This document shows, piece after piece, positions 6,761-45,618 of a stretch of DNA of 64,000 nucleotides. Both the position numbers and the translations under genes were made by a program. The stretch's first letter is position 1, and every line of letters begins with the position of its first letter. Below the pieces are notes generated by a model. The model saw only the letters and a list, made by a program, of their open reading frames with translations, was not told the DNA's origin and did no database searches. This DNA is from Acanthaster planci (taxonomy: Eukaryota), in the NCBI RefSeq assembly GCF_001949145.1, contig NW_019091361.1, forward strand, positions 3,830,148 to 3,894,147. The letters are read 5' to 3'.

Positions 6761-8650
6761 GGGCCTGGGTGACGACCAACTATGAGCCTCGAGCTGGACC
6801 AAGCGAGGGCGCAATTTTAGCAACGGAGCTCCTTTGGTCGGACTGCACTTTGCTGGTTCACAAACAACGAACGTGGCAACATTGAACCCGGGAAGAGGTT
6901 TTCAAGATGCATTTCGATGTTGTCCTATTATGATTTTTTTTATTAATAAAATGATTGTTTACCAAATACTATACGTCGTACCAATGTGTGAAATATTAGT
7001 TTATTTATTGGCCAACAGTGCCAACTTGACAAGGAAAAAATTTCCATTTTTTGCTTGATGGTTTGGCCATGTGTGAGTAAATATCACGATGTGAGCAAAA
7101 TTTGGCCGAGTGTGAGAAGAACCAACTGATTGCGTTAAAACAACTAAGTATTGAGCTTTTTGTACTTAAAGATATAAACAGACCAAACAGAATCAGCAGC
7201 ATAGCTGCAACAATAAACATAACAAGATGGAAAGTTCTAGAAAACGGGTGGTTTTTCATTTTTGTATTCATTTCATGGCGTTGAAACGAGGGTGAAGCCT
7301 CGCGTCCAGTGTCAAGCAAATACAAGTGCCTTCTTTGCCTTGTAACGTGGAGGTTGCTGTCTGATGAAATGCGACCAATTCCTTTGGCAAAGAATTGACA
7401 GCGTCACTCAGTAAATTGCCCGGGATGAAATGAGTCCCAGATTTGGCAATCCTGTATATGTGTGTGTACATGTAGTGATGTTAGTTCGATTCATTCGCGT
7501 GGTTCCTGTGAAAATGGAAGCCCTCAGTACCAATCTTCGTAGCTCAGAACTGATGTAAATCTTTGCCACAGGCTTCTCGCTCATGGTCTGCTGAAACACC
7601 TGAGGGTGGATGACATGATTTTAAAACTTACAGGGCTACCAACGATAAATTTGCGACCAATCAAAACGGAAAAGTGGATTGACATATCCTGTGGCGAAGC
7701 CGTTTGATCTCTGTTTTGTCCTAACCATGCAGAGGCAAAATAAGACCTGTGCATGATTTATGTTTTTAGGTGGTCTTCCAACCTTCAAACGGAGGCCCTT
7801 AAATATATAAAAAAAAAATAAAAAGGACAGTGAGCGAGGGAGGTGAGGGTCCAAGATCCGCACTAAAGGTTACTGGATTCGTCATGCAGTGCGTGGAGGC
7901 ATGACGTCATAGCGCTTCCCACTGCACTGTGGCAATGTGTAGGTGTTATCGTTGGTTGATCATGCATTGTTCTTACGGTTGATTTATTTTTTATTTTTTT
8001 TTTTTTAGTTTTCCACACACTGCCCTCAGAAATTAGCAATTGTATTTCTCTCATCACAAATGACGAAAATTGAAAAATGTTTCAACACAACCTGTTTTGT
8101 GCAAAAGTAATTACATGTACTCCAAATGCGTCGTTTTCGATTTGATTTCTTCGAGCTTAACACTCCATTTCGTTTCAATTGTCATCATTATTTTTTCGGC
8201 GAATTGAGTCAGCATTTTACGTACCAGCAAACTTCGCTTCCAGGAGTGTTCGATGTTTCCGCAGAGTAATGCAAGCCATTTTGTTGCTTCCACTGGAATA
8301 ATAGATCGTTTGTGTTTTTCAATCCAATTAGTTTGACATTTATTGTACTTTGACATGCACGGGAGGTTGGTATTTCCCGCTTGAAGTAACCTAATACCAG
8401 CATAATTGTTTAGATTTTGATGGTTTTTTTCTCACTATTATAACTCAAAGCCTAAAACTGTAGCAGGCGAGTTAAGTAATGTCAGTTCACTCGGGGACTT
8501 TAAATTCTAATACCTTAAAATGTGACCTATCTTATATCAATCTGGCTCGCTTCTAAAGCTTTGCTGGCTTCAGTTTCATAAGTTGTATAGTGCTGGATGT
8601 CCCAGTTCACTGCAAACTTTCCGCAGGGTCTGTTTCGCACAGATTGGAAG

Positions 8651-8915
8651 GGGGATCGGGATAGCGTAGAGGTTCTTTGCTCGCTTTGCACCGATGAGGC
8701 CTGGGTTCGAGTCCCGGCTTGGCCCAGGCTTTGCATTTGGTTTCCAGTCCATACTCGCTCTCGCAGGTTTTCTTTGGGTATATACTCCGGTTTCCTCCTG
8801 CCGCTAAGGCGGGACCCTCTTCGTAACTCAGTAGGGACCCCATTGGAAATAAGTTGAAAAACTTTCATGGGCTATCCTTGGTATTATTAATTGTGATGGA
8901 AACACTGAATAAATC
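8651..8915 (+). mobile_element. tRNA-derived SINE with V/Meta-SINE-like core motif
   Basis: A box TAGCGTAGAGG (8662), B box GGTTCGAGTCC (8704), core GGTTTTCT..GGGTA.ACTCCGGTTTCCTCC (8766-8798). Absent from the paralogous site near 32940; second copy at 16246. Confidence 0.75.
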
Positions 8916-11900
8916 CCTCGCAATCAGTGACCCGACATTGGTTTACCGACACCAACGCCACCGTTGTGGATAGAGTGAACAAGCGTGGGTATCATTGGTA
9001 GTCCTTGTGAAGCAAACTTGCCCTGTGACATTTACAATTTCAAACCACAAAGGCGACAATGCATAGCCTTGTTTTCTGGGCACTTTATGTCTGCCAAACT
9101 TGTCCAATACAGGGATTAGAGAAGGTCAATGCAATCCAACAGCGACAGACAGAAATCCGAATCAATCTGAATTTGACAAACTTGGCTCATTCCGATACGA
9201 TCTGATGATAGAATTCGTGACTCAATCCGAAACCAACAAAGGGTACTGAATCCTAATCTGACAAAATCCGAACTTATATAAATAAAAACCTGATATCTGT
9301 GTTGCGAGTCACCAACATGAATGTAAAATTTATGTACATGTATGTCTGACACCGTTGAAGACCTAACCAAAAATTGTTCACGAAGTCTAGGAACAGTGAC
9401 GACATCAAATAAGTATTTTGGTGCAATCCCAGACTTTCTTTGGGCAAAAATACTGATGAATCCTTTCGTCTATAAGAAAAGTTTCACACTCTCAGAGCAA
9501 CTAAGGCAATAAAATTATGCGGTTGCAAATAGTCACTTTGTTCCAACATGGAGGTGGTTGTATTAGGCAGTGTCCGCTCACTACACATAAATAATTGTGT
9601 TTGGCCGACACAAACCTTTGTCTCATTGTCTGAACAGATAAATGGAGGTATCCGAAACACAACCAGGAAATATTGTAGCATTCTGGCAATTTGCACGTTG
9701 TTTTACCACAAAAATGCTAATAATTATGCATGTCGAAATCCACCCCCCCCGCCACATCCACCCCACCTCAATTTCCCCAGCCCCCAACCAACAACCACCA
9801 CTAAAGCGCACAGCAGAGGTCCACTGTGTGTAAGTCTCTTAATCACAGTCGTGCAATTATTGTTGACATTCGGCAACAACGAGGCTAGCAGTGGAAGACG
9901 GGGGTGGACTTGTACCCACCCCACCCCCACTTTTCAGAGTGAGGGGAGTATCATATCTTCCCCTCATTTGTCTTCCAGTTACAGTTGGGAAGTAGGGCTA
10001 TATAATGATTAATATCTGCCTAATCTCTCCTCATATTTTCGGAAAAATGGGACTTACAAACAAAAAAGGCTCCAAATGTACATAATATTTTCAAAGATAG
10101 AAATCATTTCAAAAATGAAAGAAATGTTGCCAAAGTATTTACCTTAAAAAGTTTAGCGGTCAGAAATTACCTCAGACCGCACTGCAAGAGCAAAGAATCA
10201 ATCTTTCCAGGTGCCCTCAAGTGACCTCCAGACCCCGTGCCATAATTAGGGGTTTGCTTTTCGCTCTCATGTTTAGTTCTGATCAAGGTTATGCCCCCTA
10301 ATTTTTGAAAAGCGATTGAAACCTCTGCTGATTGATGAAGTGTTATGAGAGAGGCAGTAGAGGGCCACACACAGAGGGCAGGGGCGGATCCAGGATTTCC
10401 CAAAGGGAGGAGGGGTGGCGTGATCCAGAGATTTCCGTGGGGCATGAACTAAAGTAGCAATAGTATCATGCCCTTGAACGTGGAGCTCGAAGCCCTTACG
10501 GCGTGGGGTTCGATGCCCGCTTAATTAAGGGATTTTAGGCGCTCTGTGGTGCAATTTCAGGCAGTATGGCCCCTCTATTTCCTCCCCCTCCCTTTTTCTT
10601 CTTTATTATTTATTTATATATTTTTGGTTAAAAACACGCCCCCCCCCCGATCGGTTCCTGGAGGGATCAAAAGTGTTTGCACATGAATGGGTTGGTAGCA
10701 GGCCCGGAATTTTCTGGTTGGCCTGGCCGCTAATGAATTAACTCTACATTATAGGTGACTGCAGTCTGAAAATATTATGGTCCTCGACTGAGGAAAACGC
10801 AGAATTTCCTGCTTATTGTCTTAACAAATTTAACAAAAACACGCCAACAACTGCTTATTTTTAGAGTCTTGGTTGCTCCGAGAGTTCCTGCTATGTTCTT
10901 GTGTACTCGTAAAATATATGGAAAGTAAATGCCAAGACAGCCACTAACAATGACAGAACTATTTCGATAAAAACGTTTTTACCAGAAAAAAGGACTAGAT
11001 AGAATGTTGGATTTATGCGGGTTGGTCCACAACGTTAAAATTGGGAACAGGCGTGAACGCCAAATCTAGGCGGGAACAGGCAATCTCAGAACGGTTTTTC
11101 ATGCAACAACCGGGTTATACTAAATATTCATAAACTGTAGGCATGTTTCACATTTTCTTAAAGGGGCATATCTTGTACAGGAACAAGAGACCGACAAGAT
11201 AATACAAACTTAGAAAACTCAGCTTTGATCCATTGTCCAGGTATAAAAGTACCAAATAAAAAATAAAGGAGTCATTTTACATAATTAACACATTAATTTA
11301 TGTATTTTCTGTCTAAAATATAATTGTTGTCTGTACTACAAGGATTAATTGACGAAGTCAAAGTAAAGTAAAATTCTATCACACCAAAGGTGCCAATTTA
11401 CATCGTGTGCGTTTCTGAAATTATTTAATATTTTTATGCACTGCCTAAACTACTTCAGCCACATCAAAACAGGAATCCACAAGGGTTTGAATTGTCTGCA
11501 GTTTGATTTTTTCCACCCCGTCACCAACGTCATTTTCGAAAAAGTTATCCCTAATTGTGTTAAGACGAACAATTTTCAATTCTAATTTTGTATCCTCTCA
11601 ATAAAAAACAACAGAACGAAACAATAGAAAATTAACCTAGAAATAAAACAAAGAAAAAACAACAACAACGGAACAGTATGTTACCTGTTCACCAAACTGC
11701 TACCAAGACGACTGCAGATGTCACTGTTAAACTCGGAAGGCTTAGCGCATTAACAGCGCGCTTGAACGATATGGGAGAAAATCTTGTGGTAGGCGGGGCT
11801 CTTTTACGATTCAAAATTGCACGAGGCGGTTTTGCGTGTCTGAATGTACTTGAGATTCCCTCGACCTCAAATGTCTGTGTTGTTAGCGTTAATACAGGAG

Positions 11901-12425
11901 AAATTACCGGGCAGGTACAATTTTTTTCTGTGGAAAAGTCATTTAAAAACAAATTGATTTGAAACTAATAATTCTAAATAAGGAAGCAACTCGGTACTCG
12001 ATGTCGATCTGATACAGCATTTCAAAAGTTAGCGGAACCGGGAAGTTATACTCTGTAGACTATCGTGCAGATTGACTGATTTGATGGCTTTGCTGAATGA
12101 TCAAACTATGCATGCCTTGGAATATTTTTAATACGTACCAGCAGTTATTTCGGGACAAAATAGAAAGCTTCATTTTGAGAGCACGCAACATATGACAATG
12201 CCCAGAAAATAAATTTGTTTCTTGATCCACCACTAACTGGGAAGGCGCTAAGTATTTCGTCTGTCAGTTTCAATTGTTATCTGAAAGCCATTCCAAATTT
12301 CAGAAATTTTCCTCTCTGCGAACTGCGCCATAACAGCCATTATTTTCTTACTGTTTTTAAGCAGAGCTGCTTCCGATAAAAAATTAAAACAAGGCCAATT
12401 TTCGAGGGTACCGTGTGTAAAAAAC

Positions 12426-12456
<31 letters not shown>

Positions 12457-13737
12457 AAACCCAAAAAACAATAAGTGTTGTCACTCGATAGCAGTCTTAC
12501 AGTCTATCGACAATAATATTGTAGTCCTCATAATCACACCTCGTGTTACTTTTAAAGGTGGCTCGTCCTTTTGTAAGAGTTTGTCCATCATAACATACCC
12601 TGTATCGTTATGCTGCAGGGTCTAGTCTCATTTGGCTTTGGCCACACTGGAAACAAGAATAATGTTGAAATTTTGTCCATACCTGCAGTAGTCCGCTGGA
12701 TTTCATATACCCAGCAAGATATGGGGCGGAGGGATACCCCCCTTATATGTCCAATCCCTATACACACTCATGTTACCTAACACATCCCCATATGTCTGTA
12801 TTAAAAGAATTCCTGAGAATCTGATCGAACAATGACCAAAACAAAGGTGGTGGTGGCACTCTCCGTCCCATATCTTGCTTTATGAGTTTTATATATATAT
12901 GTACGGATTTCAGGTTGCCTAAGCTTTGAAACTCAACCAAATTGTGCGGTCCTCTCTTTTATAAATTAAGTTTATTCGACCCTTGTGGGCTATTTGGAAG
13001 CACGAATCTTCTCCTGTTAGAAATCAGCCTAATCTAAATTATGTTAGCTGATTGAGGAAGAGGGCAAAAACTTATGTGAAAAATATTAAAAACTGGCAAT
13101 AAAAAGAAACGCAGGGTGTTCTCCCTGTTGAATTGCATCGGACAGAGCTGTTGTTCGGTTCATGGAACTGGTATTACATTCAACGAAATAAGGCCGGTTC
13201 GTGACTGGCGCGAAAGCAAACGCGCGGAGAATATGTGATGTCATATCAAATGCTCGTGCTGTGAATTCGCGAAAGTTCAACACATTTAATACAACTCGAG
13301 AAATTGTCCTGCAAATATTTCATTACGTCAAGTTGCTTCACTTTCACAGTTGCCTGTGGTATGAACCGGCCCGTTGCCTGATTGATCATTTTCGAGTGTG
13401 AAATTGCGAGTGAGGCTCGTATCTGCATTGGTGGTGCACTCGTATTTTAAATATGACCGCTAATATAATATAATATATAATACCACCGCTTGTCTATACG
13501 GGGCAATTTGATAGGTCCAAAGTAGGCCTATCAAAAACCCGCCCACATTGAGGAACATGCAGTTGTGTGCTCCAATTGATAAATATATGATTCAAACTTT
13601 ATGGGCGAATTTCTAAATGGCTGAAAACGCTCAATACGGCCTTGCTACCTGTAGGAAGGGTTGAACATTTCTAAGTAATAGTTTGATTGACAACATATGT
13701 GGAAGCTCGGAAGTCAATTAACCCATTTTTTAGTAAA

Positions 13738-13764
13738 CCACGCCCCATCCTCAATCCTATAATA
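13738..13764 (+). promoter_or_regulatory. Putative core promoter of paralog A (CCACGCCC GC/KLF box plus TATAATA)
   Basis: CCACGCCC at 13738 and TATAATA at 13758-13764, about 90 bp upstream of the ATG; both conserved in paralog B (41098, 41118). Confidence 0.5.
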
Positions 13765-13849
13765 GCACGCGACTGTCTGGAAATCAAGCACATCGACTCA
13801 CAGTTTCCAGCAGTCGTTCAGTTTTCTCTCACTGATCCATTGCTGAATA

Positions 13850-16800
13850 ATGAAGCTGCTCGCTCTCTTCGTGTGTGTGGCCTTCCTGTACGGTGTCTCC
13901 TCGGAGACATCGGACTTGGGCGACAGTGCAACTGCGGTGGCTGCAGACGATGCAACCGAAGACCGCGCAGTGGCCGTAGAATTCGATGACTTCACCGAGG
14001 ATGACGACACAGCAGAAATGGACGACGAAGCCGACTTGGATTGGGATGACGATCAGACAGACGAAGATTGGGACGAGGAGCACGCGTTTCCCTTGATGTA
14101 TGAAGACCAGTACCAATACACTGATGGTAAGTAAGCGTATTTCCCATAAAATAGTTTTCTTGGCATCAGCAATCAATTTTGAACTATCACCAAGTACATA
14201 TGCCCCCAGATAAATTGAGCCGTTAGTTTTGGGGACAACGCAAAGTAGAAAAAAATGAAATTTGTTACAGCGTTTAGGAAATGTTTTTTCATTCACAAAA
14301 TATCACATAAATTCCATAATCATTGTTTATAACATCAAGCAAATCTGCCTGTTTTATTTTTTTTTCAAATTTGTGCCTGTCCATTTGATTGGTACTTTTT
14401 CTTTCGCGGGAAGCGGCTACACAGGATCATGTTCACAAACTGTCAATTCTAAAAAAGAGGACTAATTCCCAGGCATGTTGGCCGTGCAGTGTTTCTCGCG
14501 TGCGAGGTTATATTGGGGGTATATCACCCCACACCTTTTGAGGTTGGGGATGGGCTATTGCATCACCCCCCCCCACTTTTTGTGATGAGCAAAAATTAAA
14601 GCGGACTGTGAAGAAGTTTCAGGATTTCCCAACGACTTTAATGTTTGCAATATCACTATTAAAAAGGGAACATCAATTAAAAAAGCCATGAATATGACGT
14701 AAGATTGTGCATAAATTTCATACACGTCACAGATGTACATCTTTACGATGAACATCGCCCCCTATATGGTGTATATGGTGCCACCCCTCCCCCCACGTTT
14801 TTCAAATTTATAGCTGGGCAAGTCATCCCCCCACTTTCCCCACCCCACCTCCAATATCTAACACAAATTTACGTCACTGGGGACTGACAATAATTACGGA
14901 GCATTTTATCTTCTCTTGTCCAAGGTGCAAAGGCATCGGTACTAATCGATTTGAAAAAAACTTTTCTCTATAATCTTAAGCACCTTTTTTTTGTAATTCC
15001 ATGCATTCTATTTTTGATTATTTCCCTCAGCGTTGGAGCCGGCCACTAGTCCCGAAGTTGAGTGGATTCGCTTCAGGTGTCGAGGACTCAGGTGTTGTTT
15101 GTCGACCAGAATCTTCAGAAGGGGATTCAGCGGTAAGCAACTCCCCGATTATTAGACTAAGGGAATAAAATACGTGTTTGACAAGTCTTAAACGTGCGTT
15201 TAAGACCCGCTCCGGAGGACTAGGCATAATCACTTGTCAGCAGGCATCATCAAATGTAAGTACACGGTCAAGTTACACGTTGTTGAGTAGGGAGACTTTG
15301 ATATTTATGAAAAAGGGATAAAGTTTTCTCTGGTTTCTCGGTGGCTTTTGAATCCCATTTTCTCGAACCTTTATTTGCCTATCGTTGCAAAGTCCTGTTC
15401 CGTTGCTTTGGATAATTTTTCTCTCGCTTTAGTCTTTCAAAACACTTTTCGAAGTCTAAAAGTTAAGAAAACATTCTTCATGTAAACGATAACCTAGTTT
15501 GGCCAACTTATGATAAGTCAGAAAGAATATTTTCATTTTGCCGAACTCCCCCGTCCATTTTATTTTAGAGTTGTCCAAAAGAACCTAGTCTATGGACTTG
15601 GCGCAGGCGTGCTGACCTATCACACGGAGACTCTTGACCTATCAGAATCGATTAAACTGTCTCGTATCCAAGCGCCACTGTGTGATTTACGCTGGCAGTG
15701 GGCATTACTTCTCAGCTGGCGTTAGACTGGTTCCCGTCCCGTACGTAGTCTCCAGACATCCTCCGAACGCGGGATCGGTAACGGATAATGAATCCGGAAG
15801 AATCCTGCCGGACGGTAAATGAGGAAATAATGGCCGCTCAATACACTGATCAATCAAAAGCTGATAGCATTATTTTTTTCTTTCTCGTTACCGAAAATAA
15901 CTTCACCATAAATTGTTCCTTTATATACAATGTAACACACTTACCACTGATTTGAAATAAATTGCAGAAATGATTTATGAATGATAATCATTGAAAGATA
16001 AATTACTTTACTTTACTTCAAATATTCTTTTGATTTTACGTGTCGAGTCATCCTGACAGACTCTTCCAAAAAAATCCGCAGCCTGAAAAGTCTGAATTTA
16101 GCATACCTTTATGTATTTTGTGTCTTAACTCCTTACTTTTAATCATCTGATCGTATTTAGAATTGAAGCTGACACATAAAGCCTCGTTTTCCAACGCGGA
16201 AGTGCGCAGATCGATGCTAATAGCGTCGTATTGGGATCCCTCTATTGCACCGATGGGGCCTGGGCTCGAGTCCCGGCTTGGCCCAGGCTTTAAGTGCATT
16301 TGGTTTCCAGTTCATACTCGCTCTCGCAGGTTTTCTCGGGGTACCCCGGTTTCCCCGCCTCTAAAACTGGACCTTGTTCCTAACGTCCTTAAGGTGATTC
16401 GATTAATACATGTTATGAACATAATTCGCAAATAGCCCGAGTATACCTGAAAGCTGAAAGCGCCATTAAAACAAAACAACAACTCCTGCCCGCGGAAACG
16501 TTTTTCGTGTTAAAGCATTGCTTCTGGCCTGACAAAAACTGAAATATTCGGCGTCCAAACTAACAGGGCTTATCCAACACATTAAACCGCAGCTGCTAGC
16601 TACTAGTCTAAACAAACATTATCAAATGTTTAGTACACGGTCAGGTTACCCGTTGTTGAATAGGGACACTGTCTGAGGTATGAGAAAGTTCTCTTTGATT
16701 GTCGATGGCTTTTGAATCCCGTTTGCTCTGACCTTCATTTTGTCATCATCGCAAAGTCCTGTTCCGTTGCTTTAGATAATTTTCTCTTGCTTTCGTCTTT

Positions 16801-18122
16801 CAAAACATATCCGAAGTCCAAAAATTAAATAACAATTAAAAATCATCAATAGTATAAATGCTGACCTAATTTGGCCAACTTGGGATAAGTCAGAGAGAAA
16901 ATGTAATCTTCTTTCTTAAATTAGGTCTTTTTCAATCCAAATTCCTTGTGTTTCTAAACTTTACGAACCATTTCTTTTCAGCCTGCTTGAGGGGCTTTTA
17001 CAGAAATAACAGAATAGGCTACAAAGTGACCGTCAATGGGAGGACTTTTATCCAGAGGTCCGTCAGAGGTAAGATTCCGAGACTCGTACATGAATTTCAA
17101 AGTTTGGATAACTTTTCTCCTCCAGTGAAGTTTGCATGCGAACAGCTGCACGGAAACGGCNGGGCGGGGGTGTGACAAAACTACAAGAAATATTCGAAAG
17201 CATTCGTAAGTGGCAAAAGCCGGGCAGCCCCTTTTTTAAATTAAAGAACGATTACCAACAACTAAATGAATGGATAAAATGAACAAATAACTATATACCA
17301 TCAGCTGATGTTAAAAAAAATTCGATATCGGTTAGTTTTGCATGTGTTAAAAAAATTACAGGAAGTTGTATTCAGGTTACATTTTCATAACAACGTAAAG
17401 TACGCCTACATGCATTCATGAAGAAATATCCCCAGGGAATTATATTCATAAATTTGGGAGGTGATTGATCAGAGATAGAGAGAGAGAGGGGGGGGAGTGG
17501 AGAGAGAGAGATGTTAATTTTTATATTAGAAGTTTGTTTTGCCCTGCAACGGAGTATATTTTTCTAATGCAACGGCGTATATTTTTCTGATGCAACGGCG
17601 TATATTTTTTCTGATGCAACGGCGTATATTTTTTTCTAATGCAAGTATCTTAGAAAATACATATATAGCGGTATGAGCTGCTGATCTGCTCCGAATTTAG
17701 CAGCCGACCCTGGCAAGCTTGGTTAGAGTGATTAGAGTTCTGCCCCAGTAATTAGGAGATGGTTGTCCGGCGCGTCCCAGTGCCATTTTTCTTGAGTCAT
17801 AATGTCTATATAAATTACGCCTGTTAAAGGTGAAACGCCAAGTACCAAAATATTCTTTCGGATTGATTTCCAGGCTGTTCAAAGTTAATATGCACATTTT
17901 CCGTTACTTCACACAGTGGGCGCCAACGAAATCATGTACTGCAAGAAATTCAGAATAGCTTGGTTCCTTAAGAAGACAGTCTGCGCGGGGCTGACCGACA
18001 TCAACATTCGAAGGAACGGATACCGCATTCAACACATCTCGGCTCGAGCCAAGATCCAGGTTAGGGGGCGCCTGGGTTTCACCAAGAAGACCAAACCATT
18101 CACACTTTACCGCCGCCGCTAG
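13850..18122 (+). CDS. Secreted prepro-protein A, 223 aa: signal peptide + acidic propiece + 120-aa highly cationic six-Cys domain (candidate host-defence protein; possibly DUF4773-like)
   Basis: Exons 13850-14126, 15031-15132, 16982-17068, 17917-18122 (672 nt; all introns GT-AG and phase 1; no stops). Basic domain: WIRFRCRGLRCCLSTRIFRRGFSACLRGFYRNNRIGYKVTVNGRTFIQRSVRVGANEIMYCKKFRIAWFLKKTVCAGLTDINIRRNGYRIQHISARAKIQVRGRLGFTKKTKPFTLYRRR*. The same exon structure is conserved in paralog B. Confidence 0.85.
16028..16245 (-). mobile_element. One end of a non-autonomous DNA element (same family as the insert in the Gypsy 3' LTR)
   Basis: Reverse complement of 30379-30600; ends GGGATCCCTCTAT. Confidence 0.75.
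16246..16480 (+). mobile_element. 5'-truncated tRNA-derived SINE
   Basis: Closely similar to 8687-8800 (TGCACCGATG.GGCCTGGG.TCGAGTCCCGGCTTGGCCCAGGCTTT...CATACTCGCTCTCGCAGGTTTTCT); the 3' boundary is approximate. Confidence 0.7.
17545..17645. repeat. Minisatellite, about 4 x 22-26 bp (TGCAACGGCGTATATTTTTCTRA)
   Basis: Direct tandem copies in intron 3 of paralog A; not expanded in paralog B. Confidence 0.8.
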
Positions 18123-19116
18123 ATCCACCACATCGCTCTTCCGATGCTTTAGAATTATAATCGGTTCCGTCGTAATGTTACAGAGTCTCTGTAATGATAG
18201 CGCCATGAAATTGTTGAGTTTTAAGGGATCTTACGTTTCTCTTTTAATTTCTTTTGATTTTTCTCCTCCATTCCCAACCCCAATTTGATTTAAAATTCGG
18301 GCTTTTTTAGTTTGAGAAAAAAAGAGATCTGATATTGACTTCTTTATAGACAAACGTCAAATTCGTATACGCAGATGTCAAAATAATTTATGACTGTGGT
18401 CTCACAACAATAACAACATTATATTCACGCATCCTGTTGCATGAGTTGGGTAAAATATAATGAATTTGGTACATTTGGATTTATGCAATGTTGCTGTCCA
18501 GCTTTTTGTGGGTAAATGGATGCTTTGGAAAGCAGGGAAATTATGTTACCCGGGAATAAATTTTAAGCAAATATTATTGAGATTATCATCAGCAGCTTAA
18601 CAGTCAATAATACTTGCAACTGCGGTTGTTTATGAGAGCATTACATACTGTCTGATGTTTATTTCATTTCGTCAGTCTTGAGGCCTTCTTTTTCGATAAT
18701 AAAGATCCTTTTAGGCCATTTCACCATGGCTGCAGCACACCAGTTTCTACTGAGATCACAAGCACTGCCGTAAAAGTAACTCGCGTGGGTACCAGCGATT
18801 TGTCTCGGCGGCTACACATAGAGTTATATTAAAACAAATTCGTGCAGATAAACCATTTGGAACGGAATACATTTGGTGATAAAACACTTCAAACTAACAT
18901 TTATCAAGTGAACTGGGCATCAGGATTTTTCTTATCAAAAATTTTAACTGTTCCTGTTCTGCAGAAAACAATTGAGAAAAGTGGTACGTTGATGCGGAAG
19001 AATGATTGTTGACAGGAACGAAGTCAATGCATATCACCCCATGAAAATCTTATTCTGGTTCTCTTAGAGATCAAACCCACCTCCAAACTTACCGAATAAA
19101 GTCCAGGAGGCAACAA

Positions 19117-19340
19117 TTACATTCTCCGAAGTTTATTTCACAGCAAAACCCGTAATCATATAGTTATCCGTTCTTCACATTCTGAAGTTTCATTCGGTGA
19201 AAGTACGTGGGATTATACCTACATTCTCTGAAGTTAATTTCACCGCAAAACCCGCAGTCATATGGTTCTCCGTTCTTTACATTCTGAAGTTTCATTCGGT
19301 GAAAGTACGTGACTGGGATTATACCTACAACTCTCTGAAA
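19117..19340. repeat. Tandem duplication of an about 102-bp unit
   Basis: Two adjacent copies of ...ACATTCTGAAGTTTCATTCGGTGAAAGTACGT...; a single copy at the paralogous site about 47655-47760. Confidence 0.8.
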
Positions 19341-19498
19341 ATAATTATTCAAGTAACATTGTCAGGTGTATCCTTGTCGGGCTTTTTTGACGGTGACTCG
19401 CCAGACTTCTGAACCAGTGCAGAATGCTCATCCTGTCTTCTTCCGGCCCTTCCATGCAGCCAAACCCTGCTGGCCAGAGCTCGTCTCCGAGAAGAGAG

Positions 19499-19746
19499 CA
19501 CGGACGTGTATAACAAAATCTGGACTCGCAATGCCTTTAATCAGCTTATAGAGTCATTAAATCCACTCGCGGCAACTTTACCGAGCCGCATACAAAGCTT
19601 TCCTGGCAATGCCCGCCTTTGTTCTTCCTGACGTCAATAGAAGGGAGCCAGCCCACGATTTTGTCTTCGGCTGGGTAAAATGGCCGCTGGTTGGTTTCTT
19701 TTTCATACAAAGGCGTTGCAAGTCCAGGTTTTTATATACGTCCGTG
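19499..19746. mobile_element. MITE with CACGGACG termini and 8-bp TSD (hAT/P-like)
   Basis: About 38-bp imperfect TIRs; TSD GAAGAGAG/GAGGAGAG; clean empty site CCGAGAAGAGAGCAGAC at about 47917-47934 in unit B. Confidence 0.85.
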
Positions 19747-20000
19747 GAGGAGAGCAGACTTCTCCAACAATACCTGGAGGTACTCGTCCGCCTTTGACAG
19801 CCCATCACCGAACCCATGAGGCTAAACATCCTAAATAACATGTTCTCAACTTTGAAACTAGCGCCCCCTGTGTTCCATTTACGTTTATTTTGAATAGTGC
19901 ACTTGGAATCACGAGGGCTGCGTGTTGTGGCATCATAAGTTGCCAGAACGGTTAATTTAGCGACAATGAGTCAATGAAAAGACTTCACGAAGAAATTTAA

Positions 20001-20582
20001 AGGAACCAGGAAATAGAAATATTTTGATAAATTTTACTAAAACCCTTGTAATTGCATCTTTGGGTTTCAATTAACCTGATTTAAAATTTTGTTTTACTAT
20101 TTTTACCCATACTTCGATGCTTTTTAGGTTTTATGTTAATGCTATTGGCATACTTATGAGCAGAACTATTATGTAATCCAAGGCACTGAATCTCAATGTT
20201 GCACTGATCTGTGCACAGAAATTTTCCAGATTTTTTTAACCACTGCTATGGCAGATTTCATTTTCTTTGGCAATTTACTGTTGTCTAAGTATATGGCAAT
20301 AACCCAGCGAAAATCCTTTTCACAGAAATGTTCCCAGATAGCAAATTTGGGATTCACGATTTGAACATGAAAACACGCAACCTGAACCATGCCTTCCTGG
20401 ATTTACGTCAAAGCAAAAGCCCCCTCATTTGTCCAGAAATGCTTGGTCAATTCTTAAAGTTTGAAAAATGCACCGTTCAGTTCATGTGACTCAAAAAAGA
20501 TGTCAAACAGTCTTCATACACGGAAGAAGAGTACAGAGATACACAAAAAGTGATTCTAAGAAAAATTCATTTCCTGGATCCT
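20001..20582. mobile_element. Kolobok-like MITE (AGG...CCT termini, TTAA TSD)
   Basis: TIR AGGAACCAGGAAAT / AGGATCCAGGAAAT; TTAA at 19997-20000 and 20583-20586; single TTAA empty site near 48172; relatives at 1583-2136 and about 61030-61360. Confidence 0.85.
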
Positions 20583-21495
20583 TTAAAGATAAGCTATACT
20601 CTGGGTTTGCAATGGTACAGGAAACCTAAATTGTAATGAGTGGATAAGCCATAAGCATAGATTTTGATTCAGAGGGTTCCATTCAAGGGCTACGTTAATC
20701 TGAGTACAAAAAATACGGTCATGACCATTATTGGATCCGGGAGTCACCGAGGATCATGCACCCCTTACAATAATTTGCTTTTCAAAAAGAGAAAGAAAGG
20801 CGATCTTGGGTGCTTCATTCCCCTGAAGTCTCATCATATCTCAGGAATGCCACAAAAATGTTTGCACACTAAATTTCCCCCACTAGGAAGCGACTTTTGC
20901 TCCAAACGGTTGTGGTTTCCTGTCTTGTGATTGGTCTGTTCATACATAGGCCTATCTAATGCATCGTTCTGGACCTCACAAACGAGACTCATGGTGAGAA
21001 GTTTACTCTCTCGCTTGTTGTTTACAAGTAAAAAAAAAGTTGTGAAACAACAGAGAGGATTTCAAGTCGGGAGTACTTCCAACCAATCCACACATCTGCT
21101 GCCAAGCTCCGGGAATTTAATATACTTTATTATCTAACCACTCTTAAAACCTTGGACAGAATTATGAATAATGCATAAGCATAGAGGGCGCCCTCTTCCA
21201 AAGCTGTTGAATCCACAGACATAAAATTTTATATGGGAATAAACATGTGTTTGACTGGTCTTAAACGCACGTTTAAGACCGGCTCAGGAGAATGGACACG
21301 ACTAATGTTTACCATCGATTTGTAGCTGACTGTTAATCTCTTAGAATTCACGCAATAATTTGGACATAATAAAAGTCAATGGACAGTCTAATTCTGTGCA
21401 GAAACTAACAATCTATTTATTGCTTTAATGACACTTCAATCAGTTTTATGTTCACGGACAATTGGTTTTTGGATAATTATAGTAAATTCTCTATG

Positions 21496-23366: not shown

Positions 23367-23784
23367 TGCAGTGGACTATTTGTTTTCCCGTGGTTCCAAG
23401 TCAACGGCGCCACCGCCGACGGCGGAGTGGCTTCGGCGGCGCGCACCTGGCCTGGTTTTGGAATTTGGCTGGCGTGCGCTCCGGAAATAGGTAGCTATAA
23501 ATAGATCGCTTTAATTAGCTTCAAATTTGTTGGGTACGCGGAAAAGGCTTGGCTGGATTCCAGGGATGAGTCAATTGCTACAATGTTATACTTATCCACA
23601 CGGTGTGCTTTTGTACATGGAGAACGATCAGTTGTGTTTTTGGAAGCTTTGTGGCAGGTAGCCGATCTTAATTTATTAAAACAAGTAACTGAGTTTGGAG
23701 TTTAAAGCCTTGAGTGAACTGTGTCCCCCTTTCCAAGCGTTTGGCTGGATTGAGGGACAAGAGCCCAATTAGGTTTACGCTACA
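23367..23784 (+). repeat. 5' LTR
   Basis: 418-bp direct repeat of 30180-31023 once the MITE in the latter is removed; contains TATAAA. Confidence 0.9.
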
Positions 23785-23786
23785 AT

Positions 23787-23804
23787 TGGTGGCAGCGGTG
23801 GGAT
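23787..23804 (+). promoter_or_regulatory. Primer-binding site complementary to tRNA-Leu
   Basis: TGGTGGCAGCGGTGGGAT, 2 nt after the LTR end; reverse complement of the tRNA-Leu(AAG/TAG) 3' end ...ATCCCACCGCTGCCA-CCA, recalled from memory. Confidence 0.85.
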
Positions 23805-23834
23805 AATTCTTGACTGTTCAACGGAGAAGTTTTT

Positions 23835-25064
23835 ATGGCGAGCTTTACGATGGAGCTCGCAAGAAATGTTGCGGAAGCCATCAGCAACATTTCCACTGAG
23901 ATCGACCGGTTGGAGCGTTCAATTTTGGAAAGTTATGGAGCTACTCGTGGTTCCTCATTAGGAGCCAGGAGACGGCAACGCTGCGTACCGGAGACACCGG
24001 ACCCCCTTTCCAAGGACCATAGCAGCAGGCGACGAAAACCACAAAGCTTGTGGAAGCGCAAAAAGAAACTCGCGTCAGATCTTCGCGAACAGTGGCGGGC
24101 AGTGTGCAGTGAGTCTGACAGTGATGACCACCATTCTGACTGTCCTCAATCTCCAGCTCCGCCCCACCCGACTGAGGCATGCTGCGGTTGCAAACCTCGT
24201 AATGTGGGCGGGCACACGGCATTGCATACTGATACCACTGCTGGTGGATACAGTGCTGCAAATGCGGTTGACCAGCATGCAAACTTGGAACACACCGCAG
24301 CAGCACCGCGAGTAAAGGTTCGAAAGTATGACGGGTCGTCATGCATTGAGGATTACCTGGTGCACCTGGTCAGCAGGATCAACTGTTGGAATCAGGAGCA
24401 GAGGGCGGACTATCTGATGGTCGCCCTGAAAGGCCCAGGGCTGGAAGTTGCATGTTCCTTGCCAAGAGAGTCCCAGTCGTCCTTGGACGAGTTAGTCAAG
24501 GCCCTTGAGCGACGATTTGGGACTGCAAAACATGGCATTCGTCACCGCGCTGAACTGACTTCACGGAAAAGGCGTACAGGGGAGACTATGGCCGAGTTGG
24601 GCCGAGCCATCAGAAAGTTGGTCCGCCGAACCTACCCTTACAGAAGCTCCAAGTTTACGGAGGATTTTGCACTTAAACAGTTTAAGAACGCGCTGGACGA
24701 CACTGACCTCAAACGAGCACTATTCCAAGGGAAGCCGCCGCTTGACGAAGCTGTAGAGATTTTTGCAGAGGCTAAAGCATGGTTCAAGACGGAGAAGGCT
24801 GGACGATCAAGGACAGTTATGTCCAACGCCAACGCGGTGAAATCTGCGGAGCCTGCGCAAACTGATGAGGTGGCAACAATGGTGCGTGAACTTTTGGAAA
24901 TACAGCGCCGTGGCAAAGGAATAAAGAAGGCCGATGACTGGATGCCAGGATGCTGGAGGTGCGGTAGCCCGGACCATTTTTGGGCCCAATGTCCCCACCT
25001 AAAGGACGACCAGCAACCGTTAAACAAGGTAAGGCAGGTCTCAGGGCCGGAAGTCCAGCCATAG
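23835..25064 (+). CDS. gag: Gypsy Gag (409 aa, open)
   Basis: KYDG...YL, retrotransposon-gag helical region, and a C-terminal CCHC knuckle CWRCGSPDHFWAQC. Confidence 0.85.
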   Translation: MASFTMELARNVAEAISNISTEIDRLERSILESYGATRGSSLGARRRQRCVPETPDPLSKDHSSRRRKPQSLWKRKKKLASDLREQWRAVCSESDSDDHHSDCPQSPAPPHPTEACCGCKPRNVGGHTALHTDTTAGGYSAANAVDQHANLEHTAAAPRVKVRKYDGSSCIEDYLVHLVSRINCWNQEQRADYLMVALKGPGLEVACSLPRESQSSLDELVKALERRFGTAKHGIRHRAELTSRKRRTGETMAELGRAIRKLVRRTYPYRSSKFTEDFALKQFKNALDDTDLKRALFQGKPPLDEAVEIFAEAKAWFKTEKAGRSRTVMSNANAVKSAEPAQTDEVATMVRELLEIQRRGKGIKKADDWMPGCWRCGSPDHFWAQCPHLKDDQQPLNKVRQVSGPEVQP

Positions 25065-25090
25065 ATATCCAGAGGCCCAGTGAACCTTAA

Positions 25091-28000: not shown

Positions 28001-28950
28001 ACATCTCGGTGTTGCAAAAAACTTTGCTAAACTGTGCAGAAGCAACTTCAATTGGTCTTCTATGCGTCAGTCGGCTCGCCGCTGGGTCCAACGGTGCCTA
28101 CAGTGTCAGAGACGGAAACCGCCAGGTGGGGCCCCTCCCTCCCACTGGCCAGGGTAACCGGTACATCATCGTGGTGGGAGACTATTTCACCAAGTGGACT
28201 GAGTGTTATGCAGTTCCATCACACTGCCAAGACCGTTGCAACCAAACTCGTGGATGAGTTCGTCGCCAGGTTCGGTGTTCCCTAGAAGTCCACTCCGACC
28301 AAGGGAGGGAATTCGAATCTGAGATTTACACAGAACTGTGCTAAATCCTCGGCCTCATAAAGACCCGCACCACTCCATACTACCCCAGGTCCGCCGGAAT
28401 GATTGAGCGTTTCAACTGGACGATCGAAGCCATGCTGAGTCTGTGGGTGAAAAAAATCACAGCCTGACTGGGACGAGCATATTGTATATTGTGTACTGGA
28501 AGTTGGCAGATCATGACACTACAAAGGAGACACCCAATGCGATGATGTTGGCCGCGAGGTGAGGATGCCGGTAGACCTACTGTTAGGTGCCACCCCAGAA
28601 GAGACCCATATTAATCCATGTGAGTACGCCCAAAATCTTCAAGAGAAGTTGAAGTTGGCCCACGAGGTTGCCAGGAAGCCAGCAGTACACAAATGAGGGG
28701 CCCAGAAGAAGCATTACGAATTGAATGCACTGCAGGGGGTCTATAACAAGGGAGATGTGGTGTGGCTCCATTGCAAGGCAAAGAAGAAGGGAATTTGCCC
28801 AAAGATGACCCTAAGCTGGACTGGTCCCTTCGTCGTACTGGAGAGACTGTCTGATGTGGTGTACAGGATTCGGAAAACCCCTCTTTCCAGTCCGCAGGTG
28901 GTTCACGCAGACAGGCTGAAGTATGCGAAGGAGTTAGTGCAGGGGACTGT
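25091..28950 (+). pseudogene. pol: Gypsy pol (protease, RT, RNase H, integrase) disrupted by many stops, frameshifts and deletions
   Basis: FLIDTGA; SPWSSPLVLVRKKDGSVRVCIDYQRLN, HPLPRIEDSLD, FSTLDL, YLDN (decayed YLDD); DTDAS, NYCVTRKELL; H..GGHLG..CxxC, GDYFTKW, HSDQGREFES, WTGPF. Confidence 0.92.
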
Positions 28951-41209: not shown

Positions 41210-44200
41210 ATGAAGCTGCTCGCTCTCTTCGTATGTGTGGCCTTCCTGTACGGTGTCTCCTCGGAGACATCAGACTTGGGCGACGGTGCGACAGTGGTGG
41301 CTGCTGACGATGCAACCGACGACCGCGCAGTGGCCGTAGAATCCGATGACTTTACCGAGGATGACGACACAGCAGAAATGGACGACGAAGCCGACTTGGA
41401 GTGGGATGACGATCAGGATGACGATCAGACAGACGACGATTTGGACGAGGAGCCTGCGTTTCCCTTGATGTATGAAGACCAAGACACTGACGGTAAGTAG
41501 GCCTGAGCGTATTTACCATCAAATAAATAGTGTATTGGAATCAGCAATCAATCGAATTGTCACCATGTCCATACGCCTCCGGGAAAAAAATGAAAAAAGA
41601 AAAAAGAGCCTCTAGTTTTTGGCGACAACTCTAAGTAGCAAAAATAACATTTGCCAGAGCTAAAATGATTTATCAGCCAAAAAATCTTCAACGACCCCAC
41701 GAAGTGACAAAAACTTGGAAAATCGATATTTCCCGATCTTTCACCAAGACTAGTAAAATGCAACAAAATTTGACAATTTTTTCGCCCGCGTATAGGCTCA
41801 AAAAGTGACAACGACAGACGACGCGCGACGGACGACGGCAAATATAGAATTCCCTACCGTTATAATGGAGATCATTAATGCAATAGACTTTATTCACGGG
41901 GCCGGTCATATTGAATTTGAAAGCGAGGTTAACTCTTCTCTTTTGAATGTTGAGAGTACAAATAAAGAAATAAAATGACAATTCTTGACAAATTTGCATC
42001 TCTCTACACTGATGAATAATTTCAAATTCATGACTGAGCACATAGAATTGCACCTCGTCTGCCAGATTCCTAAAAGTTTTGAAAGGGAGGCTTGAAACGC
42101 ACGGAATTATAAAAAGTCTGGTGCCATCCTTAATGACAGTTTGCAATATATAAAACAGGTTTGTGGAATCAGATCAAAGATCAAAAACGTGAATAGAGTA
42201 TACAGGGGAAGAAAGTAAGACCTCCAGGTTTTGCAACCTTACAAACTGTAAAAAAATGTTAAACGAATTGCTGTTTAATTAAAACAAAAAAATCTACAAA
42301 GTAGTGTGGATCAGCATTTTCTAAACCTTATACTCAATAAAACAAAAGTGGTCGAAAATGCGGAATAAAATAGGTCGCATTTTAAACGCGTTTTTCTTGG
42401 ATATCTGTTTTGCACGATTCTCATCACTTCGTGAGAGCGTCGACGAAATATCACATAAATTCCATAAGCACCGTTTGTGAAAATCAAGCAAATCTGCCCT
42501 TTTGACCTGTACTTTTCGATCGCGGGAAGTGCTACACGGGATCATTATGCACAAAATGTCGGTTACCAAAAAACGAGAGCTACTCCCCAGGCATATTGGC
42601 CATGCATTGTTTCTCAAGTGCGATGTTAAAACAGAGAATCGCGACATCCACAACCGGGGCGCTGACGCGATGTGATTTCTACCCAGGGTTCTGAATGTCA
42701 AAGTTAAGAAATTCAGCGAAGCATGGGTAAACAGCATTCAGTGCAAATGCGAAAAGCATCTGAATTGGTAATGAATTCGTCACTCTCATCTTCACCAGTT
42801 CAGCTAAATGGCTTTGAAAAGGCGAACAAAGTGACGCAAAGCATTGGCATTTTGATATTCAACTTGTTGGGATACTATAGGCCAAAAAAGACTCCGGTCC
42901 AAAAGTGGTTTTTTTTCCCTCTCATTTTTTTTTTGCTTTAGTAGAAGTGATGTTAGAGCGCATGGCCTTGTTACTTTGAGAAGTGTGAATTAACAATTTT
43001 GAATAAATAAAAAGACCATAAAATATTACAACAGGCAATGGATTCAGTCATCTCACTCATACAAGTGCCTCTTTTCTTGGTAAGATTGAGCTTGTTAAAA
43101 TACTGTAGTGGAACCACATAGGAGAAATTAAATGTGAAAAAGACACGTTCAGCTCCAGTTTCCGGTCTTAAATGAAATTTTCGTGGAAGAGGTAGCAGTA
43201 TATGACATATTTTGCGCAGCGTTTTCTGCTTTAGCTTAGACGAAACAAGTTGCACCTCAAATATGAAAAAATAAATGAAAACAGTTCAGCTCCAGAGTCA
43301 AAATAAAAATAAAACTCTCATGATTTAGAAGATATACTGTGCACATTATTTCCGTTTTAGCTGATAAGAAACAAGTTGCATATAAAATAAGCTAAAACGG
43401 AAAACAATGTGCACAGTATATCATCTAAATCATGAGAGTTTTATTTTTATTTTGGGGGGAAAAGTTCAGCTCCAAAAACAAAATCTGCTCTCACTGTAAT
43501 CTACCTTTGTTGTTGGCAAGTTGACGATGCATGCATTGTTACATGTATGGTTATTATAGCACGATGTCCATCGCCACTGCATGCGTATGTTACCGCTACT
43601 GCTTACCCGACACTGAAATAGACTGGCCCCTTACGGTTGGTTGCTTAAAAACGTTTTCAATTTGTATATATAAGCAGAACGTAAGACCACTTCGTTTGTC
43701 TGGTTCACAGACGTGGGCCCAAGTCCGAATCAATTGGCCACTCAGCCCCAACCATCAAAAACACGTTAAAATTACCCAGTAGTAGAATTCCTGCCGATCA
43801 AGTAGGTTTGGCTGCTTCTGGAAATCGTTTTAAGCAAAATAAAAGACCTCTTTATTTTGCCGCCGCGCAGGTCTATGGCGACGCGTGCGGCGACCAGAAA
43901 CTGGAGACTTTTTTTGGCCTAATGGTGTTGGGAGATTTAGGACGCTTACCATCACCGATTTGGCGTCATACAGTTGTAAGCATGATGTTCACTTTCGCTC
44001 AAGTGGTACAAAAATCGGACTGGCAATTACTACGACGCGGTTTATCTTCTCTTGTCCATGCTAACCCCAAAGGCATCGGTATAAATCATCAGATATCATC
44101 TCTCTATGATCTCAAGCATCATTTTGTTATTCCATTCTGTTTTTGATTATTTCCCTCAGCTTTGGAAACGGCCACTAGTCCCGATCCCGAAGTTGAGGGA

Positions 44201-45618
44201 CACGGTCGTTTCAAATGTCGCGGACGCCGGTGTTGTTTGTCTAGGAGGAGATTCCACGGTAAGTACTCCCTGACATATTAATGCTAAAGCTCTTTGTTTT
44301 TTGTACCATCTTTCAATGGCTTTGAAACCCGTTTGCTCCGACTTTCATTTTCATGTCGTTGCAAAATCCTGATCCGGTACTTAGATAATTTTCCCCTCGC
44401 TTTAGTCTTTCAAAAGTATATTTGAAGTCCACAGATTAAATACCAGTGAAAAATCCCCGAGTTTGGCCAACTTATGATAAGTCAGAAAGAAACTGTAATT
44501 TTCCCCCAATGAGTTAAATCGTTTTCAATCCATTTTGTATGTGTTTCTGTATTTTTACGAACCGTTTACTTTCAGTCTGCGTAAGGGCATCTTACCGACA
44601 AGGCAAAATAAGATATAAAGCTACCATCAATAAGAAGCATGTTGTCAGGAAGTCCTTCAAAGGTAAGATTCCTAGGCTTGTATGCGAATTTCAAAGTTTG
44701 GATAACTTTTCTCCTGCATTGGCGTTTGAATGAATAACAGCTACGCGGAAAACGGCGGGGTAAGGGCTAGACAAAACTATATACAAAAAATGTTCGAAAG
44801 TGTTCGTACGTCTTACGGGTCGGGTAGCGCCCTTTTTAAAAACGGATATCAACGAATAAAACAAATCAATTTATATATCTTAAACTTATGTTGCGAAGAA
44901 AATCAGTTTGTTTTTGCATATGTTTAATCAAAAAGTTAGTCAGAATAAAGCGTATTCAGATTACACGAAAACTCCATGTTCAAACTGGACGATTGTTTTC
45001 ATAATGTGGAAACGTGCATTTCTGAAGAAATATCCCAAGGAATTATAATCATGAATTGGGGATAGGTTTTATCATGGAGAGAAAAGATCTTGATTTTTAT
45101 ATTGGATTTTATTCCCCTTCACCGACATAATATTTTTCCGATGCAAACACAAAATCTTTACAAACATATTTGACAGCGGTATCAGCATCTAATCCGCCTT
45201 GAATTTTGCAGCCAATGCAAGCAAGCATGCTGAGGAGATGGTTACCCTGCGTCCCAGGGCCATTTTTCTTGAGTCATTTAGTGTCTACATGTGTATACGT
45301 CTGTTAAAAGCGAAACATCCGGTATCCAAATATTGTTTCAGATTGATAGCAGGCTGTCCAAAGCAAGACAGTAATGTGTACCTCTCCCGTTATCTCTCCA
45401 CAGTGGGCGCCAACCAATCGATGCGCTGCATTAAAATCAGACGAGGTTGGTCAATATTCAGGAGGCGCAGGAGAGTCTGCGTGGGCCTAACCAGTATCAG
45501 AGTCCTTGGCAAAGGAAGTTGCATTCGGCACATCTCGGCTCGCGTCAAGGTCCAAGTCAAGGGGCCGCGGGGTTTCACCAGGAAGTCCAAACGAATCAGA
45601 CTTTACCGCCGCCGCTAG
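41210..45618 (+). CDS. Secreted prepro-protein B, 227 aa: signal peptide + acidic propiece + 120-aa highly cationic Cys-containing domain (paralog of 13850-18122)
   Basis: Exons 41210-41492, 44160-44258, 44576-44662, 45404-45618 (684 nt; GT-AG, all phase 1; no stops). Basic domain: GHGRFKCRGRRCCLSRRRFHVCVRASYRQGKIRYKATINKKHVVRKSFKVGANQSMRCIKIRRGWSIFRRRRRVCVGLTSIRVLGKGSCIRHISARVKVQVKGPRGFTRKSKRIRLYRRR*. Confidence 0.85.
42878..43921. mobile_element. Probable non-autonomous DNA transposon with TAGGCCAAAAAA termini in intron 1 of paralog B
   Basis: TAGGCCAAAAAAGACTCC / reverse complement TAGGCCAAAAAAAGTCTCC; no clear TSD; contains an about 150-bp internal palindrome at 43301-43453. Confidence 0.5.

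What the first reader, a model, noticed from the sequence alone, without database searches (positions are those of the whole stretch)
16982..17121. Exon more diverged than its neighbouring intron: signature of positive selection on the cationic domain
Hand alignment of exon 3 (87 nt, no gaps; 16982-17068 vs 44576-44662) gives 30 nucleotide differences (about 66% identity) and 19 of 29 amino acids replaced. Among the 10 codons with a conserved residue, only 2 differ silently. The first 53 nt of the following intron differ at only 6 positions (about 89%), and the 18 signal-peptide codons differ at one silent site. The whole mature domain is about 50% identical while all six cysteines are fixed. 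A conserved signal peptide with a hypervariable mature region is typical of immune effectors, toxins and gamete-recognition proteins.
Basis: partly seen in the sequence, partly recalled or inferred. Interest (0 to 1): 0.8.

Follow-up and report, generated by a model that had tools for sequence, protein, structure and literature searches.

The report
Fast-changing starfish cationic defence-like protein pair
Two neighbouring, expressed crown-of-thorns starfish genes encode uncharacterised proteins with an acidic front half and a very positively charged back half that changes about as fast as, and in one exon faster than, the introns around it; they likely act as secreted antimicrobial-type defence proteins under diversifying selection, though the statistical support is modest and the function untested.

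Summary
The 53 intron bases it used are the most conserved of 12 such windows; flanking introns differ by about 21-24%, not 11%. The two copies are Acanthaster planci LOC110989054 (A) and LOC110988898 (B). Each has a signal peptide, an acidic pro-region and a +30/+42 all-beta domain derived from DUF4773. Measured on its own silent sites, dN/dS is not significantly above 1 (domain 0.8-1.0; exon 3 1.2-2.3). Calibrated on the introns, exon 3 gives about 1.9-2.4 (p 0.002-0.015, exon chosen after the fact). Positive selection is therefore plausible but not shown. Two new results came up. (1) Across six sea-star family members, the pro-region's negative charge tracks the domain's positive charge (r = -0.98, only about three independent pairs), as in defensin precursors. 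(2) Public reads hold three versions of B exon 4, up to about 10% apart and mostly amino-acid changing, while no exon 3 difference was seen. These may be old alleles or an unassembled recent copy. Best reading: likely secreted cationic host-defence proteins under diversifying selection. The evolutionary pattern is known; this family and fold have not been tied to it in the papers searched.

The parts
13850..14126 (+). Gene A (LOC110989054, P0005) exon 1: hydrophobic N-terminus read as a signal peptide, plus most of the acidic pro-region
   Evidence: signal peptide judged by eye, no predictor run
15031..15132 (+). Gene A exon 2: end of pro-region, start of cationic domain
16982..17068 (+). Gene A exon 3 (the finding): three predicted beta-strands of the cationic domain; 30 of 87 nt and 19 of 29 residues differ from B
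17069..17916 (+). Gene A intron 3; 21.5% different from B overall, first 53 nt atypically similar (30-nt identical run at 17092-17121)
17917..18122 (+). Gene A exon 4 to the stop codon
41210..41492 (+). Gene B (LOC110988898, P0004) exon 1: signal peptide and acidic pro-region
44160..44258 (+). Gene B exon 2
   Evidence: splice joints in 4 of 4 runs
44576..44662 (+). Gene B exon 3; no difference from the window seen in contigs of X2, X8, X17 or X18 (X15 not resolved)
45404..45618 (+). Gene B exon 4; the 5' part occurs in three versions (0-1, 8 and 15-16 differences from the window) and codons 211-212 in three forms
13401..13849 (+). Promoter/5' leader of A; only 30 of 404 columns differ from B 40791-41209, against about 18% in adjacent non-coding DNA
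   Evidence: p 5e-7
18101..18172 (+). End of exon 4 and start of the 3' UTR; 3 of 72 nt differ from B 45597-45668 (constraint or a short conversion tract)
7692..20883 (+). Duplicated block carrying A; its pieces match 32229-49953, which carries B, mostly at about 67-87% BLAST identity

Best explanation
These are two expressed tandem starfish genes whose products are likely secreted as charge-neutralised precursors, with an acidic front part that would mask a predicted beta-sheet domain of net charge +30 and +42, which likely attacks or binds negatively charged microbial surfaces and likely evolves under diversifying selection at part of its sites. Shown: gene structure, splicing of B, charge layout, DUF4773 ancestry of the subfamily, fast replacement in the domain (omega about 1 against 0.3-0.4 in exon 1), exon 3 above intron level, divergent versions of B exon 4, and charge tracking across six relatives. 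Inferred: secretion, masking by the pro-region, its removal (no dibasic site lies between pro-region and domain in A or B), the microbial target, and selection rather than relaxed constraint.
For: Identity and expression. Charge of pro-region/domain in P0004-P0009: -39/+42, -34/+30, -22/+22, -21/+20, -7/+2, -7/-6; r = -0.98. The same relation is described for alpha-defensins, cathelicidins and frog peptides (PMC4571063, PMC7073735, passages). Fold: nine strands with pLDDT about 90 in the domain and a low-confidence pro-region. Rates: intron-calibrated omega for exon 3 is 1.9-2.4 (p 0.002-0.015); a two-class fit gives about 26% invariant sites and the rest at omega 1.9-2.4 (p 0.008-0.09). Exon 3 differences by codon position are 12, 12 and 6, and only 1 of 30 is a CpG transition. 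B exon 4: the two versions in DNA run X2 differ at about 14 of 144 exon bases, while upstream intron and exon 3 run as single contigs apart from small bubbles (Fisher p 5e-7 to 0.01 for an assumed 8-30 intron differences). Of the 14 of 15 sites shown, 11 change the amino acid (classed by hand). DUF4773 proteins elsewhere appear in lists from oyster macrophage-like haemocytes, octopus skin mucus and locust secretory pleuropodia beside lysozymes.
Against: dN/dS on the coding sequence alone is not significantly above 1 in any region, and the site-model test is negative. The significant result depends on treating introns as neutral, on my own code with equal codon frequencies, and on an exon picked after the fact (multiply p by 3-4). 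Omega is the same at sites where Patiria has a hydrophobic or a polar residue (0.97 against 1.00), so there is no sign that change concentrates on the surface. In the divergent exon-4 version, replacement and silent rates are similar (0.103 against 0.086), and a partial McDonald-Kreitman table is flat (p 0.79). The charge correlation rests on about three independent pairs. A contigs have about half the depth of B in both DNA runs (19 against about 34-52; 32 against about 61), so the exon-4 versions may be copies, not alleles. Tissue of expression is unknown, and no activity was measured.
Confidence: 0.48

Rival explanations
1. Relaxed constraint rather than positive selection: after duplication the domain only has to stay folded and cationic, so it drifts at about the neutral rate. 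Exon 3 is the upper tail of local variation, or the copies arose from already divergent haplotypes.
For: Omega 0.77-0.97 for the domain; site test negative; no core/surface contrast and a flat MK table; silent divergence in the domain (0.36) exceeds that in exon 1 (0.13), p 0.016; 9 of 55 replacements are K/R swaps and 14 are between hydrophobic residues.
Against: An average omega near 1 with six fixed cysteines and other invariant sites implies the remainder exceeds 1 (two-class fit). Exon 3 exceeds all 62 non-coding windows, and simulated bias does not close the gap. Both frames are intact and both copies are transcribed.
Confidence: 0.27
2. A recognition or binding protein that is not antimicrobial: a gamete-interaction protein, or a polycation that binds acidic mucus, egg jelly or matrix polysaccharide, with the acidic part preventing premature binding.
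For: Cationic folded domain with rapid change. Sea-star bindin shows positive selection (PMC4063459, PMC3605852, search listing only). Contig depth differs by orders of magnitude between RNA-type runs, which would fit tissue-restricted expression.
Against: No similarity to any solved chain by sequence. The charge-balanced pro-region is the layout described for defence peptides. DUF4773 mentions elsewhere are somatic, secretory or immune.
Confidence: 0.18
3. (Concerns only the exon-4 versions; compatible with the other readings.) The divergent versions belong to an extra, recently duplicated B copy or copy-number variant missing from this assembly, not to balanced alleles.
For: A contigs have about half of B's depth in X2 and X8; X8 versions are at 25 and 56, not 1:1; X15 holds three versions.
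Against: No pair of versions is common to both DNA runs (X2 has the 1- and 15-difference forms, X8 the 8- and 16-difference forms). The contigs listed for X17 and X18 run through the exon-4 5' part with only the window's form. A's second haplotype may simply fall below the 85% laying threshold.
Confidence: 0.4
4. A spine venom or toxin component.
For: Secreted-type, cysteine-bearing and fast-changing, in a venomous animal.
Against: Neither the accessions nor the shared N-terminus were found in the held supplements of two spine studies and one tissue-expression study (these files may use other gene identifiers). It is not the spine 'attractin' family. No known toxin family was matched by Pfam.
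Confidence: 0.07

Closest known systems
DUF4773 (PF15998) proteins of invertebrates
   Same: Three of four nearest relatives pass the Pfam cut-off (27.5, 28.6 and 30.4 bits against 27) and the fourth scores 16.8. The six-member profile aligns to a mussel DUF4773 repeat (94% probability, E 9e-8). Six cysteines are invariant across the six.
   Different: A and B themselves do not hit PF15998. They have lost some of the N-terminal cysteines (6-7 against 8-11), carry a long acidic pro-region and are extremely cationic. Two other A. planci members are near neutral and end in a hydrophobic tail.
Charge-balanced antimicrobial precursors (alpha-defensins, cathelicidins, frog skin peptides, Hydra periculin-1, coral damicornin/AmAMP1)
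   Same: Conserved signal, anionic pro-part, variable cationic cysteine-bearing mature part, and a negative correlation of the two charges. Highly divergent alleles are described at a frog peptide locus (PMC2582982, abstract).
   Different: No sequence or fold relationship was found. The mature part is a folded nine-strand domain of about 118 residues, far larger than those peptides. No dibasic processing site in A or B. Activity untested.
FAIM N-terminal domain fold (PDB 3mx7)
   Same: Best structural match: Z 7.8, rmsd 3.1, 85 residues aligned.
   Different: 6% identity. Z below 8 is common for unrelated beta-sandwiches by the tool's own note, and FAIM is intracellular (recalled). No functional inference drawn.
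Acanthaster attractins and PpCrAMP
   Same: Secreted sea-star proteins; attractins are a tandem family with conserved signal peptides. PpCrAMP is named as the only known sea-star antimicrobial peptide (PMC11767717, passages).
   Different: The attractin peptides listed bear no resemblance by eye to A or B. PpCrAMP is described as a small beta-hairpin; its sequence was not compared.

Membership tests
DUF4773 (PF15998) | Pfam score at or above the gathering cut-off for A or B | tested here: not met
   no PF15998 hit at E up to 10 for P0004 or P0005
DUF4773 (PF15998) | Homology to cut-off-passing members over the domain | tested here: met
   P0007-P0009 found at E 2e-41 to 3e-16 and pass the cut-off; profile match to P0010
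DUF4773 (PF15998) | Full N-terminal cysteine cluster as in the relatives | tested here: not met
   the four relatives have Cys where B has R117 and A has Leu, plus a CxC; A and B keep six of the cysteines
Charge-balanced antimicrobial precursor (works-like claim) | Signal peptide, anionic pro-part, cationic C-terminal part | tested here: met
   signal peptide judged by eye
Charge-balanced antimicrobial precursor (works-like claim) | Pro-part charge tracks mature charge across the family | tested here: met
   r = -0.98, n = 6, about three independent pairs
Charge-balanced antimicrobial precursor (works-like claim) | Proteolytic release of the cationic part | tested here: inconclusive
   a dibasic site precedes the domain in P0006 and P0008 only, not in A or B
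Charge-balanced antimicrobial precursor (works-like claim) | Antimicrobial activity | not testable with these tools
   needs an assay
Gene under positive selection | dN/dS significantly above 1 from coding sites alone | tested here: not met
   only two sequences, low power
Gene under positive selection | Replacement rate above the neutral rate of flanking introns | tested here: inconclusive
   met for exon 3 (p 0.002-0.015 before correction), borderline for the domain, not for exon 4
Locus under balancing selection | Deeply divergent alleles segregating at one locus | tested here: inconclusive
   three versions up to about 10% apart; allele or copy not resolved
FAIM-like beta-sandwich | Structural match clearly above background | tested here: inconclusive
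   Z 7.8, rmsd 3.1, 85 aligned; next unrelated row Z 6.1

The most novel reading that the evidence does not exclude
Sea stars have turned the function-unknown DUF4773 beta-sheet domain into a new class of large, folded, polycationic antimicrobial effector whose acidic pro-region is tuned charge-for-charge to the domain. In crown-of-thorns starfish one copy carries ancient balanced alleles about 10% apart in exon 4, while exon 3 was driven apart between the duplicates by selection.
Probability: 0.25. Interest if true: 0.7.

Novelty: new variant of a known kind. Interest (0 to 1): 0.42.

Why it matters
What is worth having is a testable lead. A widespread domain of unknown function would get a first functional hypothesis. 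Sea stars, with one described antimicrobial peptide by a 2025 review, would gain a family. A reef pest would have a highly variable candidate defence locus. No paper naming these genes was found: accession and gene-number searches returned 0 papers, DUF4773 appears in 3 papers only as a list entry, and three supplement searches were blank. The library lacks most subscription papers, and Acanthaster studies often use other gene identifiers, so supplements or papers I could not match may bear on this.

Tried and rejected
1. Conversion from A as the source of the divergent B exon-4 version: rejected. Only 5 of the 44 A/B differences in 45404-45547 take A's base, and they are interleaved with sites that do not (matched by hand).
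2. CpG hypermutation for exon 3: 1 of 30 differences.
3. Alignment bias as the whole explanation: simulated introns at true p about 0.34 read 0.29-0.31, whereas the real intron reads 0.215. The real intron has more gaps (33) than most simulations, so the bias may be somewhat larger.
4. Asymmetric acceleration of B: 21 against 14 polarised changes, p 0.31, not supported. The tree in the same call is mostly unresolved, so no order of events is claimed.
5. A third copy or extra exon in the window: none by tblastn or local alignment.
6. Fold searches: Foldseek gave no match at E up to 0.001; no PDB sequence match; Atlas hits were all under 0.9, DUF4773 at 0.76, a lead only. A second VIA search was not obtained.
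7. Related loci: none in viral or prokaryote collections; the single metagenome hit L001 rests on one 8-residue word and was discarded as chance.
8. No whole genome was held, so orthologous DNA and genome-wide depth were unavailable. No RNA holder was on record among indexed runs; X15, X17 and X18 are guessed RNA.
10. Earlier-finding look-ups gave nothing that bears on this.
11. One search hid 35 of 75 difference rows and 33 contig pieces, and hid 79 rows, so variant counts are partial.

Full report
**What is there.** A self-comparison shows a tandem duplicated block, about 7.7-20.9 kb against 32.2-50.0 kb, with a decayed retrotransposon between the copies. Each copy holds a four-exon gene with GT-AG introns and an intact frame: A (13850-18122, 223 aa) and B (41210-45618, 227 aa). 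B equals RefSeq XP_022108542 (LOC110988898) and A equals XP_022108848 (LOC110989054) of Acanthaster planci, both uncharacterised. All three B introns are skipped at the modelled sites in 4 of 4 runs laid, one of them raw RNA reads. Exon contigs reach depths of thousands against about 5 in intron 3 in two runs. A-type contigs are present too: an exon-1 contig in X17, where 7 of the 9 differences shown match A by hand, and an exon-4 contig in X15. Tissue is unknown.

**The observation.** The intron stretch it chose is the most conserved of 12 consecutive 53-column windows. The pooled flanking introns differ at 224 of 1083 columns (20.7%), or about 22-24% after simulated aligner bias. Exon 3 remains above this (Fisher p 0.004) and above all 62 non-overlapping non-coding windows of its size. 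Those windows come from alignable blocks and read slightly low.

**Selection tests.** All are my own code on two sequences.
- Coding sites alone: exon 1 omega 0.27-0.42; exon 2 0.27-0.33; exon 3 1.18 (counting) or 2.0-2.3 (likelihood, p 0.26); exon 4 0.72-1.05; cationic domain 0.77-0.97. M1a against M2a is not significant.
- With introns as the neutral clock at p 0.207, 0.225 and 0.24: exon 3 omega 2.36, 2.12, 1.94 (p 0.002, 0.007, 0.015); exon 4 1.45-1.21 (p 0.055-0.31); domain 1.49-1.25 (p 0.011-0.14); two-class model p 0.008-0.088.
- Against targeted selection: equal omega at hydrophobic and polar positions, and a flat partial MK table.

The domain therefore clearly evolves faster than the leader, at or somewhat above neutral. 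Positive selection is likely for exon 3 but not demonstrated.

**Gene conversion.** Exon 1's similarity is explained by purifying selection: silent differences are 7 in 50.7 sites, not different from the introns (p 0.14). The 450 bases upstream are also conserved (7.4%), evenly and without long identical runs, which fits promoter constraint or an old conversion. The 72 bases around the stop codon are nearly identical (3 differences, p 7e-5 before correcting for the search) and may be a short conversion tract.

In B's exon-4 5' part, contigs show versions with 0-1, 8 and 15-16 differences from the window. X2 holds 1 (depth 21.9) and 15 (23.8); X8 holds 8 (25.1) and 16 (56); X15 holds all three. 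Of the 14 of 15 sites shown, 11 are replacements and 3 silent, 0.103 and 0.086 per site (classed by hand). Codons 211-212 occur in three forms. Exon 3 shows no difference in X2, X8, X17 or X18, but contigs drop variants, so this is not proof. Intron 3 also has one divergent patch in X2 (2 against 10 differences in 119 bases). The 15-difference version is not a conversion from A. A's contigs have about half of B's depth in both DNA runs, so an unassembled extra B copy is as yet as plausible as old alleles. Either way, exon 4 has diverged far more than the DNA next to it.

**What the protein is.** The searches found four more members: two in Patiria miniata on one scaffold and two more in A. planci on another. 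Three of them pass the DUF4773 cut-off, and the profile matches a mussel DUF4773 repeat. A and B are too derived to hit the model themselves. AlphaFold gives a nine-strand all-beta domain at residues 111-224 (pLDDT about 90, one weak loop) and a low-confidence pro-region, with alignments of 3 and 6 sequences. The best solved match is FAIM-NTD at Z 7.8, which is not decisive. The telling feature is charge. Pro-region and domain carry -39/+42, -34/+30, -22/+22, -21/+20, -7/+2 and -7/-6 (r = -0.98; about three independent pairs). The two near-neutral members end in hydrophobic tails (mean hydropathy 1.9 and 2.2 over the last 15 residues) that resemble GPI signals (recalled, not predicted). Such charge balance is the described anti-autotoxicity layout of alpha-defensins and cathelicidins (PMC4571063, passages) and is weakly present in frog peptides (PMC7073735, passages).

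**Mechanism.** Most likely the precursor is secreted with its polyanionic segment shielding the polycationic domain. After release or dissociation, the domain would bind anionic microbial envelopes, and variation in targets would drive replacement in the domain while leader and promoter stay fixed. Layout, fold prediction and rates are shown; secretion, masking, cleavage and target are inferred (confidence 0.48). Relaxed constraint (0.27), a non-immune binding or gamete role (0.18) and a venom role (0.07) are the rivals.

**Literature seen.** PMC11957666: abstract, parts 1-2 of 6 and a supplement search. PMC10448888 and PMC9759900: supplement searches. PMC12064177, PMC11431876, PMC6966819, PMC4571063, PMC7073735 and PMC11767717: passages. 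PMC2582982: abstract. Bindin papers: listing only. Searches for the gene numbers and accessions found no paper; two topic searches found nothing on this family.

**Verdict.** A real but overstated observation pointing to a real, undescribed subfamily. The evolutionary pattern is of a known kind; its combination with a DUF4773 fold, the charge tracking and the deep exon-4 variation make it a moderately interesting, directly testable lead.

Noticed in passing
window 23367-31025: Decayed LTR retrotransposon between the two gene copies: direct repeats 23367-23786 and 30180-31025 (84-91% alike), a weak PNMA/gag-like hit (E 0.003) and an integrase C-terminal hit (E 4e-13), in several broken frames.
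   Followed up: partly
window 15245-15530 and 16617-16902: A's intron 2 holds the same segment twice. The two copies are 82% alike and each about 80% alike to B's intron 2, so the internal repeat is about as old as the A/B duplication; A may join parts of two ancestral copies.
   Followed up: partly
window 18101-18172 and 45597-45668: Near-identical stretch across the stop codon and the start of the 3' UTR; possible short conversion tract or regulatory element.
   Followed up: partly
window 16025-16247 and 30377-30600; 8686-8827 and 16245-16384: Dispersed repeat pieces inserted in A's intron 2, one 89% alike and inverted relative to a piece inside the right LTR region.
   Followed up: no
P0008, P0009: Two further A. 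planci family members, neighbours on another scaffold, near neutral in charge and with hydrophobic C-terminal tails: possible membrane-anchored counterparts.
   Followed up: partly
window 17964-18010 and 41232-41241 (A-type contigs): A-type contigs in X15 and X17 differ from the window's A at a few sites that change amino acids (two in exon 4, two in the signal peptide, read by hand), so A may be variable too; no reads were laid on A.
   Followed up: no
window 59323-60172, 32042-32048, 17161: Assembly gaps or unknown bases; the single N lies in A's intron 3.
   Followed up: no
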